64,000 nucleotides of DNA from the IMG/VR virus record IMGVR_UViG_3300046007_007030; one strand, given 5' to 3'. Positions within the stretch are counted from its first letter, which is position 1. Every line of letters begins with the position of its first letter. The notes beneath the pieces were generated by a model that did no database searches, had not been told where the DNA came from, and saw only the letters and a program-made list of their open reading frames with translations. Below are positions 3,728-62,008 of this stretch, one piece after another. Source of the DNA: a virus. Made by a program: the position numbers and the translations under genes.

Positions 3728-4656
3728 GAGTCGCCAGCGAGAGTCTTGAAGAACTCGAGGCTCTCATCATCATCTTCGACCACTGCGCTCTTCTTCGACT
3801 CCTTCGGCGTAGACCAAGGGAGCTCATCGTCGTCGCTCTGCTTAGGAGCAGGAGCGGCCTTACGAGGAGCTGGAGTCTCGACCACGCTGTCAGTCAAGAC
3901 ATCATCGAGACCGAGCACCTTGTAGAGCTTGGCCTTCAGATCGTCGTACGACTTGAAGTTGGAAGGATCGAGGAAGGGCTTCAGCTTGTGCTGCCTCTTC
4001 CAGATCTTCTCGAGCTTGGCGTCGTCGTCGAGCAACGGACCAGACTCAGAGAACTGAGACTTGTCGTAGTTGCGATAGCCCTCGACGTTGCGGATCTTGA
4101 TCTGGAAGTTGGCGCCGTCCCAGAGATCGAACGGGTTCAGCGGCTCCTCGTCCGGGAACTGCGGATGCATGACTTCCTGGAGCTTGTCGAAGATCTTCTT
4201 GCCATACTTGAAGAGAAACACCTTGCCCTCGTTCTCAGGGTTGGCGGGATCCTTCAGCACGATGATGTTGGAGATGTAGGTGAGGCGACGCTTCTGCGCG
4301 CGAGCCTGACGACGCTGAGGAGAGTTGTCGTCCTCGGTAGCGTTCCAGAGCTTGGAGTTGTACTCGCCGACAGGATCCTTCTCGTTAGGACCGAGAGAGG
4401 TGCGGGAGTTCTCGATGTACCATCCGCCTGGTCCCTTGAATCCGTGGTCCCAGATGCGAATGAACGGTACGTCTTCACCCTCGGTTGGGGGGAGGAAGCG
4501 AATCACGGCGTAGCCGTTACCGGCCTTGTCCACGGCCGGATACCAGATACGGTCGTCTGCTGACTGCTGATTGGTCTTGGTGTTGAGCTTATTGAGTTCC
4601 GCGGTGAGTGTCTCGAGCTGAGACGTGCGGTTCTTCTTGAGGGAAGCGAAGTCCAT
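3724..4656 (-). CDS. 32: T4-like single-stranded DNA-binding protein gp32
   Basis: 'DKAGNGYAVIRFLP', 'HGFKGPGGWYIEN', 'FKYGKKIFDK', acidic tail. Confidence 0.97.
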   Translation of the reverse strand: MDFASLKKNRTSQLETLTAELNKLNTKTNQQSADDRIWYPAVDKAGNGYAVIRFLPPTEGEDVPFIRIWDHGFKGPGGWYIENSRTSLGPNEKDPVGEYNSKLWNATEDDNSPQRRQARAQKRRLTYISNIIVLKDPANPENEGKVFLFKYGKKIFDKLQEVMHPQFPDEEPLNPFDLWDGANFQIKIRNVEGYRNYDKSQFSESGPLLDDDAKLEKIWKRQHKLKPFLDPSNFKSYDDLKAKLYKVLGLDDVLTDSVVETPAPRKAAPAPKQSDDDELPWSTPKESKKSAVVEDDDESLEFFKTLAGDS

Positions 4657-5949: not shown

Positions 5950-6279
5950 TGAGAGTGGTGGGTTTATTCTGTTTCCAAGTCAAACCCACCGAAAACTCAT
6001 GTCAGGCCGCTAGGGCGAGACGAGGTGCATAGTTGTCGTTTGCACTTAACGTTTTGCGCTTGACGTAGTCGCCTACGATTATCTCCAGTCGCCTATTACA
6101 CTCTTGTCGAATCCTAAGCTCGCCCCCATCAAGAACACACCGATTATCATATCTCATCGGCTAGCACGATATAAGACCACACGCTCTATTCGGTGGCTGG
6201 TGTGTTCGTGGTGGAGGCGCCGGGAGTTGCACCCGGGTCCAAGTAGTCTTTCAACTTCCTTCTACGATAATTCTGTCTT
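5950..6279 (-). ncRNA. ssrA: Two-piece (circularly permuted) tmRNA, alphaproteobacterial type
   Basis: Acceptor piece ends in T-arm CCGGG-TGCAACT-CCCGG-CGCCTCC-ACCA (6209). A paired intervening segment follows, then the coding piece starts GGGGGCG..GGATTCGAC at 6127 (G3:U70 Ala identity). Tag ORF 6043-6002 = ANDNYAPRLALAA*. Outer ends approximate. Confidence 0.92.
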
Positions 6280-6300
6280 GTCAATCCTAGTTCACTCCCA

Positions 6301-6432
6301 TCAAAGATGCATCTTTGGCCATTTTAGATGAGCCTCAGCATATTTCTTTCCCATCGTCTCAGAATCAACCAATATTGTTACTTTGACGTTGGTTTCAAGA
6401 ATAATAAATTCTTCGATCTTTTTAAGTTTCAT
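6301..6432 (-). CDS. 43-aa ORF inside the duplicated tmRNA locus (MKLKKIEEFIILETNVKVTILVDSETMGKKYAEAHLKWPKMHL)
   Basis: Translated by hand; bounded by the 13-bp direct repeat GATGCATCTTTGG (6306-6318, 6433-6445). Confidence 0.4.
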   Translation of the reverse strand: MKLKKIEEFIILETNVKVTILVDSETMGKKYAEAHLKWPKMHL

Positions 6433-58127: not shown

Positions 58128-58202
58128 TGGTGCTGCCAGAGAGGATCGAACTCTCGACCTCACCCTTACCAAGGGTGTGCTCTACCACTGAGCTACGGCA
58201 GC
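58128..58202 (-). tRNA. tRNA-Thr(GGT)
   Basis: Cloverleaf, GGT anticodon. Confidence 0.93.
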
Positions 58203-58215
58203 GTTATCCTATGTA

Positions 58216-58292
58216 TGGTGCGGTGGGTGGGAATCGAACCCACAACAAAGAGTTTTTGAGACTCCCGCGTCTACCGATTGCGCCACCACCGC
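58216..58292 (-). tRNA. tRNA-Leu(CAA), short variable loop
   Basis: CT-CAA-AA. Confidence 0.88.
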
Positions 58293-58909: not shown

Positions 58910-59131
58910 TTATCGAAGAATTCCATTGCTTCCTCTAAAGAGGTCGCTGTCTGATCAAGATATACACCGGTGTTAGAAAAGAGTACATAGACATTTTGAC
59001 TATCTTCGTGGATCCTGTTATGATCGCACGTCCACATCCTACGAGGTGGAGCGTTGTCGTTGGCGTACTGGTAGAGGTACTCTTTCCAGGTGTGCTTATT
59101 GGCAGTCAGCGACATAGTACCTCCTAAAAAA

Positions 59132-59207
59132 TGGTAGCCGGTGAGGGATTCGAACCCCCGACATCTTGCGTGTAAAGCAAGCGCAACTACCGCTGTGCTA
59201 ACCGGCT
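59132..59207 (-). tRNA. tRNA-Val(TAC)
   Basis: TT-TAC-AC. Confidence 0.9.
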
Positions 59208-59208
59208 A

Positions 59209-59234
59209 TAAAAAAGGGCGGCCGAAGCCGCCCC
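59209..59234 (-). terminator. Intrinsic terminator after the DUF2828 gene
   Basis: GGGCGGC-ttcg-GCCGCCC-TTTTTT. Confidence 0.85.
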
Positions 59235-59247
59235 TCGGTATTGCTAT

Positions 59248-60678
59248 TTACAGGTCGTACTTATGATCCATGATCGTCTTGAGCATGATCGTCTCAGGAG
59301 AGAACTCCTCGAGGTCGGCCGAGAGGACCGACTTCACGATAGCCGGAGAGAAACCAGAGACCAGAGCCGTGCCGGACTTGTCGAACTTGACTGGGACGTT
59401 GTCCGCAGCGTTCAGGTTCCAGAACACGATCCTTGGCATGGTGTATCCGGCCTCGGCGTACTTACGACCGATCATCTCGATCGCGGAGTCGTCGTGATGA
59501 GCACAGTAGTCGAACTGCATGTCCGAGAGGATCAGCAGCATCTTCGGCATCTCCTCGGCCGGAACCGAGTGAGCCACCGCGACCTCTAGGATCTTGGCGA
59601 CAGCCTTGTTGAGATCCGTGTTCATCTGCCACTGCGAGCGAACCATCTGCTCGACCTTCTGCAAGACGTCGCCCTTCAAGTTGAAGAGCTGAGGTGAAGA
59701 AGAGAAGGTCAAGAACGTGTCCTTGAACTTACCCTTGTTCTTATCCGCCAAGTAGAGACCGAGAGACACGGCCACGTCCAAGCAGGACAACTTCGACTTG
59801 CTGTTGTGGCCACCGGCCGGGCACGTCATCGAGCCAGACACGTCGACCAGAGGCAGGATCGACGCGTCACCGACGTAGTTAGGCAGAGCCTCCCACTGAG
59901 CGACGATGTGGTTCTTATTGGCTAAGCTGTAGGCGATAGCCTGCACACCCTTCAGTACGTCGTACGGGTAGACTGCGCCGGCATTGACCTTGACTTCCTT
60001 GCGGACCTCAGGGTCGGTGGATACCAGCTTCGCGGCCCACTCCTTGTACTTCTCAGTATGACGAGCGAAGGCCTTCTTGTACCTGGCAGAAGCCAGAGAA
60101 GGAACGTGGTTGAAGTTGATCTCGTCCCACTGCTTCGCACACATCTGAGTCTCGACGACCTTGGTCAACTCGACCAGACGCTTGCGATAGAACTTCGGAG
60201 TCCAACCGAGCTTGGCACGAAGCTTCGCTGCTAATGCACCCTTGCGAGGCATCCACTTAGCGCAGAGACCGTCACCCTTGGAGAGAGCCTCTCGGATCAT
60301 CTCCACTGCGAAGTCACCTACTTCACCCTCGACACCCACGGCCACGAGGACGTCGTCCCAGCGACCGAGCACCGGAGCCTTGCGGAGCAAGGAGACCGCC
60401 GCGTCAGTGTCATTCGAGATCAAGTGGTTCACGATGTCGTGGAAGAGCTTACGCTCACCCGACCCGCCGCGAACGTCGCGAGCCCACTGCGCGATACGCA
60501 AGGCGTAGTCGCGGTTCTCGACGTAGGCCGCCGTGAAGCCAGGAACGATGTCCTTGCCACGAGAGGCGCCGATCTTGAAGAACAGGTCCACGCACGAAGA
60601 CGTAGTGGACTTGAGGGCCTTCATACCGTTATCGGTACGAGCCGACTGGTTGCGAACTGCATTTGCGAATGTAGACAT
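59248..60678 (-). CDS. DUF2828-family (TROVE/Ro60-like helical domain plus vWA) protein
   Basis: 'T.NG...S..DLFF', 'RDVRGGSGER', 'GRWDD', 'AKWMPR', 'VPSLA..Y.KAF.RH', MIDAS 'DVSGSM', 'SDMQFD', 'IVFWNL', 'VSGFSP'. Confidence 0.88.
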   Translation of the reverse strand: MSTFANAVRNQSARTDNGMKALKSTTSSCVDLFFKIGASRGKDIVPGFTAAYVENRDYALRIAQWARDVRGGSGERKLFHDIVNHLISNDTDAAVSLLRKAPVLGRWDDVLVAVGVEGEVGDFAVEMIREALSKGDGLCAKWMPRKGALAAKLRAKLGWTPKFYRKRLVELTKVVETQMCAKQWDEINFNHVPSLASARYKKAFARHTEKYKEWAAKLVSTDPEVRKEVKVNAGAVYPYDVLKGVQAIAYSLANKNHIVAQWEALPNYVGDASILPLVDVSGSMTCPAGGHNSKSKLSCLDVAVSLGLYLADKNKGKFKDTFLTFSSSPQLFNLKGDVLQKVEQMVRSQWQMNTDLNKAVAKILEVAVAHSVPAEEMPKMLLILSDMQFDYCAHHDDSAIEMIGRKYAEAGYTMPRIVFWNLNAADNVPVKFDKSGTALVSGFSPAIVKSVLSADLEEFSPETIMLKTIMDHKYDL

Positions 60679-60700
60679 TTCACTTCTCCTATGATTTCAA

Positions 60701-60760
60701 CAGGTTCAACTTTTGGCAAAGTTACAAAGTTTGCTTTTCGATGGTTGCTGAACTGAACCT
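60701..60760 (-). ncRNA. Y-like small RNA A
   Basis: AGGTTCA-GTTCAGCA...TGAACCT-G; shares architecture with B, C and D. Confidence 0.6.
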
Positions 60761-60769
60761 ATAACTCGA

Positions 60770-60886
60770 CGGGATCACATTGCTTTAGAGTGCTACCGTT
60801 ACACCACACCGACTTGCGTCGGTGCCGGGATTCGAACCCGGTCTTCTCCTTTACAGAGGAATGCAATTGTGTGCTGTAGTGATCCC
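60770..60886 (-). ncRNA. Y-like RNA B containing a permuted tRNA mimic (YrlA-like)
   Basis: GGGATCA-CTACAGCA ... T-arm CCGGG-TTCGAAT-CCCGG, closed acceptor CACCGAC-GCAA-GTCGGTG, D-arm TGGTGTAACGGTAGCAC ... TGATCCC-G. Confidence 0.8.
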
Positions 60887-60893
60887 AAAACTC

Positions 60894-61349
60894 TTAGTCT
60901 AGATTAGACCATTCTAGTATCTTAGCCTTGAGGGGTTCGTACTCCTCAGGCTTGTAAGAAGTCCTGCCATCCTTACCGTAGTACTTGTAGATGCGGTGCT
61001 CCTTGGGCCCGTACTTAGCCACCATCTCGATGATCCTCGGCAGGATGGTGTGTTGGTAGAGCTCTTCGTCGTGCCTCTTTGCTTCGACCTGCTTATAGTC
61101 TAGGCCTGCTAGGAAGGCGCGGGCGAGATGAGTAGATCTGGCTTCGTTGCGCACCACCGTCTTGCGATGATGATGAAGATCGTACCACTTCGAATGGATC
61201 TTGTACGATTCTTTGTGCTCAAAGATGTCGGTGACTTGATACGTCTTCTTGTACCAAGAGAGCTGCTTCTTGAGTTTTTTCTCTTCCCGCCGAATGATCG
61301 CCGGTTCGAGGGCCAGATGCTTTGATTTGATCTTGAGTTCGATAGACAT
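60894..61349 (-). CDS. Basic hypothetical protein within the RNA array
   Basis: 'LKIKSK.LA.E..IIR.EE...L..HR...VR.EAR...LARAFL.G..Y..VE'. Confidence 0.75.
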   Translation of the reverse strand: MSIELKIKSKHLALEPAIIRREEKKLKKQLSWYKKTYQVTDIFEHKESYKIHSKWYDLHHHRKTVVRNEARSTHLARAFLAGLDYKQVEAKRHDEELYQHTILPRIIEMVAKYGPKEHRIYKYYGKDGRTSYKPEEYEPLKAKILEWSNLD

Positions 61350-61636
61350 AAAATTCTCTCCTATTACTGATCTTACTTTGTGTAGACGAATGAGTACAGG
61401 AAAGAATTTAGGGAGGCTTGAAGACTTTCTAACGGAAGATCTGGATAGCGCGTCGAGCTACAGCTCGCCAACACTCTTGACGATCTTCGCCCAGCTCCTC
61501 CCAAGTCGGGAGAGGCTTTCCATCGAATGTCTTACCACCAGCTTTGTAGAAATAAGATTTCCAGAGCTCCGTGGAGAGCCTGTCGACACCAGTCGTGTCG
61601 TACTCGTCGAACATATTATTCTCCATTTGATGGTAG

Positions 61637-61710
61637 TGGTGCCCGGTGTGGGGTTCGAACCCACGTCCAGAGTTTTAGAGACTCTCGCTCAGCCACTGAG
61701 CTAACCAGGC
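61637..61710 (-). tRNA. Amber suppressor tRNA (CTA anticodon)
   Basis: AGAGT-CTCTAAA-ACTCT anticodon arm, canonical T-arm, ACCA. Confidence 0.88.
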
Positions 61711-61718
61711 AATTTCAA

Positions 61719-61768
61719 CGGGTTCTGCTTTGTGCTATATGCAAGCTGTTGTATGCGGTAAAGAACCC
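61719..61768 (-). ncRNA. Y-like small RNA C
   Basis: GGGTTCT-TTACCGCA...AGAACCC-G. Confidence 0.6.
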
Positions 61769-61777
61769 TAAAGTCGT

Positions 61778-61973
61778 CGGGATGCTTTGAGTCGGTCATT
61801 TAATTTTCTCTCGCGATTCCACTCCACCGCAGTATCTGAGAATCTTGTCTCAGCACGATCTTCAATTCGGTGAAGCTCCTAGTCCACGCAGCACGCCTAA
61901 GCGTCGGAAGAAGACGGTGATGTAACCCTAAGAGAGTTACTACCTTTCTGAAAGGTTATGCTGTAGTCATCCC
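61778..61973 (-). ncRNA. Y-like RNA D (196 nt, multi-hairpin)
   Basis: GGGATG-ACTACAGCA...CATCCC-G; 5' end sits at the predicted start site of the promoter at 61980-62008. Confidence 0.65.
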
Positions 61974-61979
61974 ATATTC

Positions 61980-62008
61980 TATATACCTCAGCCGTGCGAA
62001 TATGTACA
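61980..62008 (-). promoter_or_regulatory. Early promoter driving the RNA array/DUF2828 operon
   Basis: TGTACA-17-TATATA. Confidence 0.7.

What the first reader, a model, noticed from the sequence alone, without database searches (positions are those of the whole stretch)
60770..60886. Circularly permuted tRNA mimic (T-arm, GNRA-sealed acceptor stem, D-arm) inside RNA B
Seen: a perfect T-arm (CCGGG TTCGAAT CCCGG) precedes an acceptor-like 7-bp stem closed by a GCAA tetraloop, followed by a canonical D-arm. There is no CCA end, so it cannot be aminoacylated. An extra hairpin has an anticodon-like CTGTAA loop. Known: this T-AS-D order is the architecture of bacterial YrlA Y RNAs found beside rsr. 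Inference: an elbow-mimicking tRNA decoy tethered to DUF2828, possibly titrating host anti-phage tRNases or tRNA-binding enzymes. It is the strongest independent support that the array RNAs are Y-RNA analogues.
Basis: partly seen in the sequence, partly recalled or inferred. Interest (0 to 1): 0.82.

Follow-up and report, generated by a model that had tools for sequence, protein, structure and literature searches.

The report
Phage tRNA-mimic Y-like RNA
A T4-like phage encodes, just upstream of a gene for a Ro60-shaped ring protein, a 118-base RNA that combines a conserved "handle" with a rearranged, closed-ended copy of a tRNA; it resembles bacterial YrlA Y RNAs but belongs to a widespread phage branch that I could not find described in print.

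Summary
The RNA has an 8-bp terminal stem, a CUACAGCA internal-loop motif and a variable-arm hairpin. These are followed by a perfect T-arm, a 7-bp acceptor-like stem capped by GCAA, a UG dinucleotide and a canonical D-arm.

A covariance model built without this sequence finds it as the top hit in the window (69.6 bits, E 1e-11). Thirty-five relatives beside the same gene in other phages show compensatory changes in all four helices: 94% of cells pair, against 36-46% in slid controls. These phages include Felix O1-type phages and a mycobacteriophage.

The neighbouring DUF2828/DUF7788 protein is predicted to fold like Ro60; the 13 best PDB matches are all Ro60.

The layout is that of YrlA. However, the RNA fails Rfam's YrlA threshold (22.6 against 69 bits) and lacks YrlA's GNCGAA motif. 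I therefore class it as a new variant of the Ro60/Y-RNA kind, not as a YrlA member.

The "anticodon-like" hairpin sits where a tRNA's variable arm would be. The decoy function is untested.

This scan has already reported the same protein and handle-RNA system on many other genomes. I found no paper or Rfam family describing it.

The parts
60770..60887 (-). RNA B, the whole unit: handle plus circularly permuted tRNA-like domain
   Evidence: Fold. Model R1 gives 80 bits. Leave-one-out model R2 gives 69.6 bits, E 1.1e-11.
60879..60887 (-). 5' strand of the terminal stem (UGGGAUCAC)
   Evidence: Pairs with 60770-60778. In relatives, 7 of the helix's 8 pairs change on both sides.
60770..60778 (-). 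3' strand of the terminal stem (GUGAUCCCG)
60872..60879 (-). Handle motif CUACAGCA (family consensus N-U-W-C-M-G-C-A-A), next to the 5' strand of the stem; presumed protein-binding site
   Evidence: U, C and GCA are near-invariant in 78 distinct aligned units. The same motif occurs in RNAs A and C of this window.
60863..60867 (-). AUUGC, proposed 3' half of the anticodon-stem equivalent; pairs with GCAAU at 60779-60783
   Evidence: Read from the sequence. By eye, relatives have a covarying ~5-bp stem at this position, e.g. CCGGC/GCCGG in L079 and ACCGA/UUGGU in L063 (rows). This stem is not in the model, so the assignment is an inference.
60845..60860 (-). Variable-arm hairpin UCCUCU-GUAA-AGGAGA
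   Evidence: A hairpin at the same place occurs in the Felix O1-type relatives L082 and L087.
60825..60841 (-). T-arm CCGGG-UUCGAAU-CCCGG
   Evidence: G53, U54, U55, C56, A58 and C61 are invariant in the family. Three of the five stem pairs covary.
60807..60824 (-). Acceptor-stem equivalent, 7 bp, closed by a GCAA tetraloop
   Evidence: All 7 pairs change on both sides among relatives and 96.6% of cells pair.
60805..60806 (-). UG linker, equivalent to tRNA positions 8 and 9
   Evidence: U is near-invariant in the family. Position 9 is A in 43 units and G in 8.
60790..60804 (-). D-arm GUGU-AACGGUA-GCAC
   Evidence: G10, A14, G18, G19 and A21 are invariant or nearly so. Three of the four stem pairs covary.
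59248..60678 (-). Gene for the 476-aa DUF2828/DUF7788 protein, predicted Ro60 fold (helical-repeat ring plus vWA domain with a DxSxS motif); presumed partner
   Evidence: Pfam. PHROG 850 'RNA-binding protein'. AlphaFold2 model with mean pLDDT 85. The top 13 Foldseek PDB hits are all Ro60. D279, S281 and S283 are invariant.
60701..60761 (-). RNA A (context): handle-only unit, ending 22 nt before the DUF2828 start codon
   Evidence: Pattern scan. R2 gives 28.7 bits, E 0.002.
61719..61769 (-). RNA C (context): handle-only unit
   Evidence: Pattern scan. R2 gives 23.2 bits, E 0.028.
61778..61974 (-). RNA D (context): ~197-nt unit with the same stem plus CUACAGCA start
   Evidence: Read from the sequence. 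No model hit.

Best explanation
RNA B is a two-module small RNA of the Ro60/Y-RNA type.

Module 1 is a "handle": a 7-8-bp terminal stem, the single-stranded motif UACAGCA(A) on its 5' side, and an A-rich 3' side. It shares this handle with the other small RNAs in the operon. The handle is the presumed docking site for the Ro60-fold ring protein encoded 92 nt downstream.

Module 2 is a circularly permuted tRNA body. The anticodon-stem equivalent joins onto the handle. It is followed by a variable arm, a T-arm, a 7-bp acceptor stem closed by a tetraloop, U8-G9, and a D-arm. All the nucleotides that build the tRNA elbow are kept, so it should fold into the L-shape seen in the crystal structure of YrlA. 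It has no anticodon loop and no free CCA end.

The most likely function is that of an adaptor. The handle holds the ring protein, and the tRNA-like elbow recruits, or competes for, a host or phage factor that recognises tRNA shape. Candidates include PNPase (as in Ro60-Y RNA-PNPase complexes), RNase P, tRNA-modifying enzymes and repair enzymes. This would direct the ring's RNA-handling activity during infection.

Shown here: the fold, by comparative analysis; the genomic linkage; and the predicted Ro60 fold of the protein. Inferred: binding, processing into a discrete RNA, and the identity of the recruited factor.
For: Structure:
- The minimum-energy fold contains every helix, z = -3.5.
- Leave-one-out model R2 gives 69.6 bits, E 1.1e-11, the best hit in 64 kb.
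- In 35 relatives, 93.9% of cells pair against 36-46% when partners are slid. Twenty of 24 pairs change on both sides, including all 7 acceptor-stem pairs. The 78-sequence set gives the same picture.
- U8, G10, A14, G18, G19, A21, G53, U54, U55, C56, A58 and C61 are invariant or nearly so.
- The Levitt pair covaries in the family: A15:U48 in 21 units and G15:C48 in 10, against 19 other combinations.

Linkage:
- All 90 R1 hits in 85 sources lie on the DUF2828 gene's strand.
- Thirty-three loci plus the window have hits of at least 43 bits.
- In whole-genome searches of four phages, the best hit is within about 1.1 kb of the gene on the same strand: Bas63, Si3, Rose5 and Ci1.

Protein:
- The AlphaFold2 model has mean pLDDT 85 and pTM 0.85.
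- The 13 best PDB matches are all Ro60, from Thermus phage phiLo, Xenopus, Deinococcus and human. TM-scores are mostly 0.5-0.62 (0.37-0.38 for two entries) over about 500 or more aligned columns.

Likeness to YrlA:
- Published architecture.
- The Rfam YrlA model aligns T, AS and D of RNA B at 22.6 bits and scores 36-40 bits on relatives.

Function of the protein family:
- Bas63 gp130 is a 39%-identical homologue of the protein here. It is reported as Ro60-like and as a counter to the Ppl defence system (PMC11482910).
- An unannotated RNA of this family lies in the tRNA stretch downstream of gene 130, about 1 kb away, at 77 bits.
Against: - There is no expression, processing or binding data for this RNA or for any member of the family.
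- RNA B itself has A15 and A48, which is not a canonical Levitt pair. Five unpaired bases lie between the D-stem and the proposed anticodon-stem equivalent.
- It does not reach Rfam's YrlA threshold and lacks the GNCGAA motif that YrlA uses.
- In the PhageMaP preprint, gp130 alone, expressed from a plasmid or from T7 without the phage RNAs, was enough to counter Ppl. So at least that activity may not need these RNAs.
- Listeria phage P200 has the gene but gave no hit to the model.
Confidence: 0.7

Rival explanations
1. Decoy or sponge. The tRNA-like domain is mainly bait that soaks up a host tRNA-targeting defence nuclease or another tRNA-binding factor, rather than an adaptor that recruits a factor to the ring.
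For: The phage invests heavily in tRNAs: 19 tRNA/tmRNA genes in the window. A homologous protein counters a defence system. The intact elbow would be recognised by elbow-binding proteins.
Against: There is no anticodon loop, so anticodon nucleases have nothing to cut. The closed acceptor end removes the other common target. The reported counter-defence needed only the protein. A decoy would not need a conserved protein-docking handle.
Confidence: 0.15
2. Cis-acting leader. RNA B and RNA A are structured parts of the 5' untranslated region of the DUF2828 mRNA. The protein binds its own leader to control its synthesis, and no separate small RNA exists.
For: RNA B and RNA A lie 92 and 22 nt upstream of the start codon on the same strand. 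The pattern scan found no terminator-like site between them and the gene.
Against: In Felix O1-type phages, mycobacteriophage Rose5 and Citrobacter phage Ci1, the homologous RNAs lie downstream of the gene, among tRNA genes. A full tRNA-like domain with conserved tertiary-contact nucleotides is more than a binding site would need.
Confidence: 0.08
3. Precursor of a two-piece tRNA-like molecule. The capped acceptor stem is opened by RNase P and 3' trimming, giving a split RNA with a free 3' end that could receive CCA. This happens with Mycobacterium smegmatis YrlA.
For: The acceptor stem is 7 bp, as in tRNA and M. smegmatis YrlA. In about 10 homologues whose acceptor stem pairs (6-7 of 7 bp), the loop begins with ACCA or GCCA directly after the acceptor 3' strand. 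The phage also carries a two-piece tmRNA.
Against: RNA B's loop is only four bases (GCAA), a stable tetraloop with no leader for RNase P and no CCA.
Confidence: 0.04
4. Decayed remnant of two adjacent tRNA genes: the T-arm of one and the D-arm of the next, with no function.
For: The model also picks up true tRNA dimers weakly, e.g. 58178-58243 at 30-31 bits. YrlA is thought to have arisen from dimeric tRNAs.
Against: In true dimers the acceptor strands mostly do not pair with each other (3-5 of 7). Here all 7 pair and covary across phages. The flanking handle is conserved, and no remains of the missing tRNA halves exist.
Confidence: 0.02

Closest known systems
YrlA Y RNAs of bacteria and of phages with TROVE-type Ro60 (Rfam RF02553; Chen et al. 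2014, PMC4201824; structure in bioRxiv 10.1101/312249, PDB 6cu1)
   Same: The module order is the same: protein-binding stem, anticodon-stem equivalent, variable arm or loop, T-arm, closed acceptor stem, dinucleotide, D-arm. The tRNA elbow nucleotides are conserved. There is no free CCA and no anticodon loop. The RNA is encoded next to, and on the same strand as, a Ro60-fold protein. It is the best Rfam match.
   Different: The score is 22.6 bits against a threshold of 69. The GNCGAAN0-1G motif is absent and replaced by a UACAGCA(A) handle. The partner protein matches Pfam DUF2828/DUF7788, not TROVE, and has no sequence match in the PDB. The RNA sits in an array of several RNAs that share the handle.
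Thermus phage phiLo Ro60 with Yrl1 and Yrl2 (PMC12135203; PDB 9KOP, 9L5Y)
   Same: A phage-encoded Ro60-fold ring with small RNAs encoded just upstream of its gene. It is the top structural match to the protein here. In vitro it assembles with host PNPase.
   Different: Yrl1 and Yrl2 are stem-bulge-stem RNAs with a CGAA motif; the paper does not use the term 'tRNA-like' for them. The proteins are only 16-18% identical over the structural alignment.
Bas63 (Felix O1-type) gp130, reported as Ro60-like and as a counter to the Ppl defence system (PMC11482910)
   Same: gp130 is a 39%-identical homologue of the protein here. An RNA of the same family, with the same type of D-arm and variable hairpin as RNA B, lies about 1 kb downstream (77 bits).
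   Different: The preprint only guessed that some annotated tRNAs might be Y RNAs. The RNA found here is unannotated and overlaps a small reverse-strand ORF call. The protein alone sufficed against Ppl.
Class I RNAs of dictyostelid amoebae (PMC7919456)
   Same: The published description matches the handle's layout: a ~6-bp stem joining the 5' and 3' ends, a conserved 11-nt single-stranded motif next to the 5' strand, a variable remainder, and ends AAG...CUGU. The phage units begin (A/U)AG and end CUG(U).
   Different: The motif sequence is not printed in the text I could read, so identity of the motif is untested here. Class I RNAs are 42-65 nt and are not described as carrying a tRNA-like domain. 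This lead came from earlier notes of this scan.
Two-piece (permuted) tmRNA and permuted tRNA genes
   Same: The 3' part of the tRNA body is encoded before the 5' part. The same phage carries a permuted tmRNA.
   Different: Those molecules are cut to give a free CCA end and are aminoacylated. RNA B is closed by a tetraloop and matches the permuted-tmRNA model only through its T-arm (15.9 bits).

Membership tests
YrlA (Rfam RF02553; Chen et al. 2014) | T stem-loop, then a closed acceptor-like stem-loop, then a D stem-loop, with tRNA-invariant nucleotides | tested here: met
   Sequence and fold. Invariant U8, G10, A14, G18, G19, A21, G53, U54, U55, C56, A58 and C61. The YrlA model aligns T, AS and D correctly.
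YrlA (Rfam RF02553; Chen et al. 2014) | Tertiary contacts of tRNA, including a covarying Levitt pair (G15:C48 or A15:U48) | tested here: inconclusive
   The family covaries: A:U 21, G:C 10, other 19. RNA B itself has A15 and A48. Its other contacts (U8-A14, G18-U55, G19-C56, U54-A58) are possible.
YrlA (Rfam RF02553; Chen et al. 2014) | GNCGAAN0-1G motif near the 5' end, the proposed Ro60 contact | tested here: not met
   The only CGAA in RNA B is in the T-loop. The 5' region carries CUACAGCA instead.
YrlA (Rfam RF02553; Chen et al. 2014) | Score at or above the curated gathering threshold (69 bits) | tested here: not met
   No hit in the 64-kb or 5-kb scans. 22.6 bits in a 211-nt scan. Relatives score 36-40 bits.
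YrlA (Rfam RF02553; Chen et al. 2014) | Encoded within about 4 kb of a Ro60 orthologue, on the same strand | tested here: met
   92 nt upstream on the same strand. The protein has a predicted Ro60 fold. Caveat: it matches Pfam DUF2828/DUF7788, not TROVE.
YrlA (Rfam RF02553; Chen et al. 2014) | Bound by Ro60 in vivo; modified by TruB and DusA | not testable with these tools
   Needs immunoprecipitation and modification mapping.
   Leave-one-out model gives 69.6 bits. Column statistics. RNA B deviates at one position: C instead of A after GCA.
tRNA (Rfam RF00005) | Cloverleaf with open acceptor ends and an anticodon arm | tested here: not met
   ARAGORN does not call it. The tRNA model gives only a partial 16-bit match.
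Dictyostelid Class I RNAs | Short terminal stem, conserved 11-nt motif beside its 5' strand, ends AAG...CUGU | tested here: inconclusive
   The layout matches the published description. The motif sequence is not in the text held. No amoeba sequence was compared.

The most novel reading that the evidence does not exclude
The handle is a universal plug for a Ro60-like ring, and the array RNAs are interchangeable cargo. Each would display a different piece or permutation of tRNA (T-AS-D as here, D-anticodon arm-T in some relatives, simple hairpins in others). The phage would thereby carry a panel of tRNA look-alikes, each aimed at a different host tRNA-recognising enzyme or tRNA-targeting defence. 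Relatives whose acceptor loop begins with ACCA would be cut into two-piece, CCA-ended and perhaps chargeable tRNA mimics.
Probability: 0.12. Interest if true: 0.85.

Novelty: new variant of a known kind. Interest (0 to 1): 0.6.

Why it matters
Ro60 and its Y RNAs are studied mainly in animals and a few bacteria, and what the tRNA-like domain of YrlA binds is still unknown.

Here the same design recurs with a different handle and a very divergent ring protein. tblastn finds that protein in 710 phage records, including well-studied groups such as Felix O1-type phages, and the Listeria, Staphylococcus, Campylobacter and Vibrio phages.

One family member, Bas63 gp130, already has a reported counter-defence phenotype. 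That makes the function of tRNA-mimic Y RNAs directly testable in easy phage-host systems. It also explains unannotated gaps, and doubtful small ORFs, in phage tRNA clusters.

Tried and rejected
Searches that gave nothing:
- Megablast of 59000-62000 against GenBank phages: no match.
- Distant blastn of the RNA region: one short T-arm-type match only.
- Sequence search of the protein against the PDB: nothing at E up to 10. The fold search was needed.
- Rfam at gathering thresholds: nothing here except tRNAs and tmRNA.
- The window's own assembly is not held. The nearest record shares only 22% of sampled words and has no YrlA match.
- Pfam and PHROGs on the 151-aa ORF, and Pfam on the 65-aa ORF, between RNA C and RNA B: no family. 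These ORFs are not conserved in related loci apart from one or two close relatives, so I do not count them as parts.

Literature limits:
- "DUF2828" occurs in five papers, none relevant.
- The supplementary tables of Chen et al. 2014, which list the phages, are not held.
- The 2020 Annual Review on bacterial Ro60 is not held.

Alignment and scans:
- The MAFFT alignment of 21 units (A2) misaligned the acceptor and D stems because loop lengths differ. I replaced it with a 10-sequence seed and model-based realignment.
The transcription unit therefore remains an inference.

Readings rejected:
- Anticodon-like loop: it is a variable arm.
- Genuine tRNA or tmRNA.
- Dimeric-tRNA remnant.

Full report
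**Where and what.** The feature lies on the minus strand between a 151-aa ORF (60894-61349) and a 476-aa gene (59248-60678). All tRNA genes of this tRNA-rich, T4-like phage window are on the same strand. Read 5'->3', the RNA runs from 60887 to 60770 in this order:
- an 8-9-bp terminal stem;
- the single-stranded motif CUACAGCA;
- a short AUUGC segment that can pair with GCAAU near the 3' end;
- a hairpin UCCUCU-GUAA-AGGAGA;
- a perfect T-arm;
- a 7-bp stem capped by GCAA;
- UG;
- a D-arm GUGU-AACGGUA-GCAC.

The minimum-energy fold contains all of these helices (-45.5 kcal/mol, z = -3.5). ARAGORN does not call it a tRNA.

**Is it more than chance?** Upstream or downstream of homologous genes in 80 viral contigs I saw the same kind of unit repeatedly. 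A simple pattern for stem, motif and stem found 136 units on the gene's strand and 20 on the other. A covariance model from 10 units (R1) found 90 matches in 85 sources, all on the gene's strand. Thirty-three loci and the window had hits of 43 bits or more. Because the window was in that seed, I rebuilt the model from 35 strong matches, excluding the window and its 99% twin. This model finds 60887-60770 as the best hit in the whole window (69.6 bits, E 1.1e-11). More weakly, through the handle alone, it also finds RNA A (60761-60701) and RNA C (61769-61719).

**Comparative support for the fold.** On the 35 relatives, 93.9% of cells form standard pairs, against 36-46% when the 3' partners are slid by 1-3 columns. 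Twenty of 24 pairs change on both sides. These include 7 of 8 pairs in the terminal stem, 3 of 5 in the T-stem (the other two never vary), all 7 in the acceptor-like stem and 3 of 4 in the D-stem. The 78-sequence set agrees. These alignments are fitted to the model, which favours pairing, but the gap to the slid controls is large, and my first pattern search did not require the acceptor stem to pair.

The nucleotides that build a tRNA's core and elbow are invariant or nearly so: U8, G10, A14, G18, G19, A21, G53, U54, U55, C56, A58 and C61. The Levitt pair covaries across the family (A:U 21, G:C 10, other 19). RNA B itself has A15 and A48.

**The extra hairpin.** It sits between the anticodon-stem equivalent and the T-arm, where class II tRNAs and many YrlA RNAs have a variable arm. 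Its loop differs by an inserted base in the 99% relative. Felix O1-type relatives have a hairpin of different sequence at the same place. It is not an anticodon arm, and the molecule has no anticodon loop.

**The neighbour.**
- The 476-aa protein matches Pfam DUF7788 and DUF2828 and PHROG 850, "RNA-binding protein".
- It has no sequence match in the PDB.
- An AlphaFold2 model from a 37-sequence alignment is confident (pLDDT 85, pTM 0.85).
- Its 13 best PDB matches are all Ro60 proteins, aligned over about 500 or more columns with TM-scores mostly 0.5-0.62 (0.37-0.38 for two entries). Isolated vWA domains follow at much weaker E-values.
- The DxSxS metal-site motif of the vWA domain is invariant.
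- tblastn finds homologues in 710 phage records from many host groups. Some are annotated "Ro-like RNA binding protein".

**Linkage in complete genomes.** Searching four whole phage genomes with R1, the best hit was always close to the gene and on its strand: Bas63, Si3, mycobacteriophage Rose5 (109 nt downstream) and Citrobacter phage Ci1. Listeria phage P200 gave none. In Bas63 the RNA (record 82780-82907) is unannotated and overlaps a small reverse-strand ORF call.

**Comparison with what is known.** Chen et al. 2014 described YrlA: a Ro60-binding stem with a GNCGAAN0-1G motif joined to a tRNA-like domain in the order V, T, closed acceptor stem, D. It is encoded beside Ro60 in 254 bacteria and 22 phages chosen by TROVE annotation. 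The crystal structure shows a true L-shape with the tRNA tertiary contacts. RNA B has that design.

Rfam's YrlA model is its best Rfam match and aligns T, AS and D correctly. But the score is 22.6 bits against a threshold of 69 (no hit in larger scans). Relatives score 36-40 bits. The GNCGAA motif is absent, and the handle here is different and shared with non-tRNA-like units. The partner is a different, very divergent branch of Ro60-fold proteins. I therefore file it as working like YrlA but not as a YrlA member.

Other relevant literature:
- Thermus phage phiLo Ro60 binds two upstream Y-like RNAs and host PNPase in vitro.
- A preprint reports that Bas63 gp130 is Ro60-like, counters the Ppl defence even when expressed alone, and might use "some tRNA genes" as Y RNAs. 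I confirmed that gp130 is a homologue of the protein here.
- I found no paper that names DUF2828 in this context and none describing these RNAs.

**Earlier notes of this scan.** The same system has been reported many times on other genomes, and the array in this window has its own note. Those notes gave me the lead to dictyostelid Class I RNAs. The published description matches the handle's layout: a 6-bp end-joining stem, an 11-nt motif beside its 5' strand, and ends AAG...CUGU. I could not check the motif sequence.

**How it probably works.** The handle docks on the Ro60-like ring, and the tRNA-shaped domain is displayed as the effector module. By analogy with Ro60-Y RNA-PNPase complexes, and with YrlA's recognition by TruB, DusA and, in mycobacteria, RNase P, it would recruit or compete for a factor that recognises tRNA shape. 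The fold, the linkage and the protein's predicted fold are shown here. Binding, processing and the partner are inferred.

A pure decoy role is possible but less likely for anticodon nucleases, since there is no anticodon loop. A cis-regulatory leader role is weakened by relatives where the RNA lies downstream of the gene. A two-piece, CCA-ended product is unlikely for RNA B because of its GCAA tetraloop. It is plausible, though, for about 10 relatives whose acceptor loop starts with ACCA or GCCA. That pattern also fits the published idea that YrlA arose from dimeric tRNA transcripts.

**Verdict.** The RNA is a new variant of the Ro60/Y-RNA kind.

Noticed in passing
window 5957-6332 (-): A permuted (two-piece) tmRNA gene in a phage: Rfam tmRNA_permuted 96.4 bits and alpha_tmRNA 69 bits. 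ARAGORN gives the tag peptide ANDNYAPRLALAA.
   Followed up: no
window 61637-61710 (-): A tRNA with a CUA (amber) anticodon, 64.7 bits on the tRNA model, lies inside the same operon between RNA C and two small ORFs.
   Followed up: no
L058:1527-1654, L058:2120-2252, L069:2467-2604, L080:2401-2532, L019:692-824, L019:2553-2723, L026:4746-4879: In these relatives the loop of the acceptor-like stem begins with ACCA or GCCA directly after the acceptor 3' strand. It looks as if a discriminator base and CCA end were encoded, which suggests cleavage into two-piece, CCA-ended tRNA mimics, or descent from tRNA dimers.
   Followed up: partly
L029:4463-4558 and L078:2804-2945: Units with the same handle carry tRNA parts in the normal order (D-arm, anticodon-type arm, T-arm) without an acceptor stem. 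This is the layout described for Deinococcus Yrn1 rather than YrlA.
   Followed up: no
L087:2981-3108 (Bas63, MZ501086 82780-82907): A 77-bit member of this RNA family is unannotated in the Bas63 record and overlaps the reverse-strand hypothetical ORF bas63_0137, which is probably a false gene call.
   Followed up: partly
L084 (Listeria phage P200, MT178767): An RtcB-type RNA ligase gene lies about 1.3 kb downstream of the DUF2828 homologue, as in bacterial rsr-yrlA-rtcBA operons. The T-AS-D model finds no RNA in this genome.
   Followed up: partly
L081:4512-4625 (Ci1) and L082:2713-2879 (Si3): GenBank annotates 'tRNA-OTHER' pseudo-tRNAs close to the DUF2828 homologue. In Ci1 the pseudo-tRNA overlaps a model hit at 4441-4554, so such calls may be misread Y-like RNAs.
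   Followed up: partly
window 61778-61974 (-): RNA D is a ~197-nt unit that starts with the same stem plus CUACAGCA and closes with CAUCCCG. Its large insert has no match to the model. Similar long units occur in relatives, e.g. L054:1758-1971.
   Followed up: no
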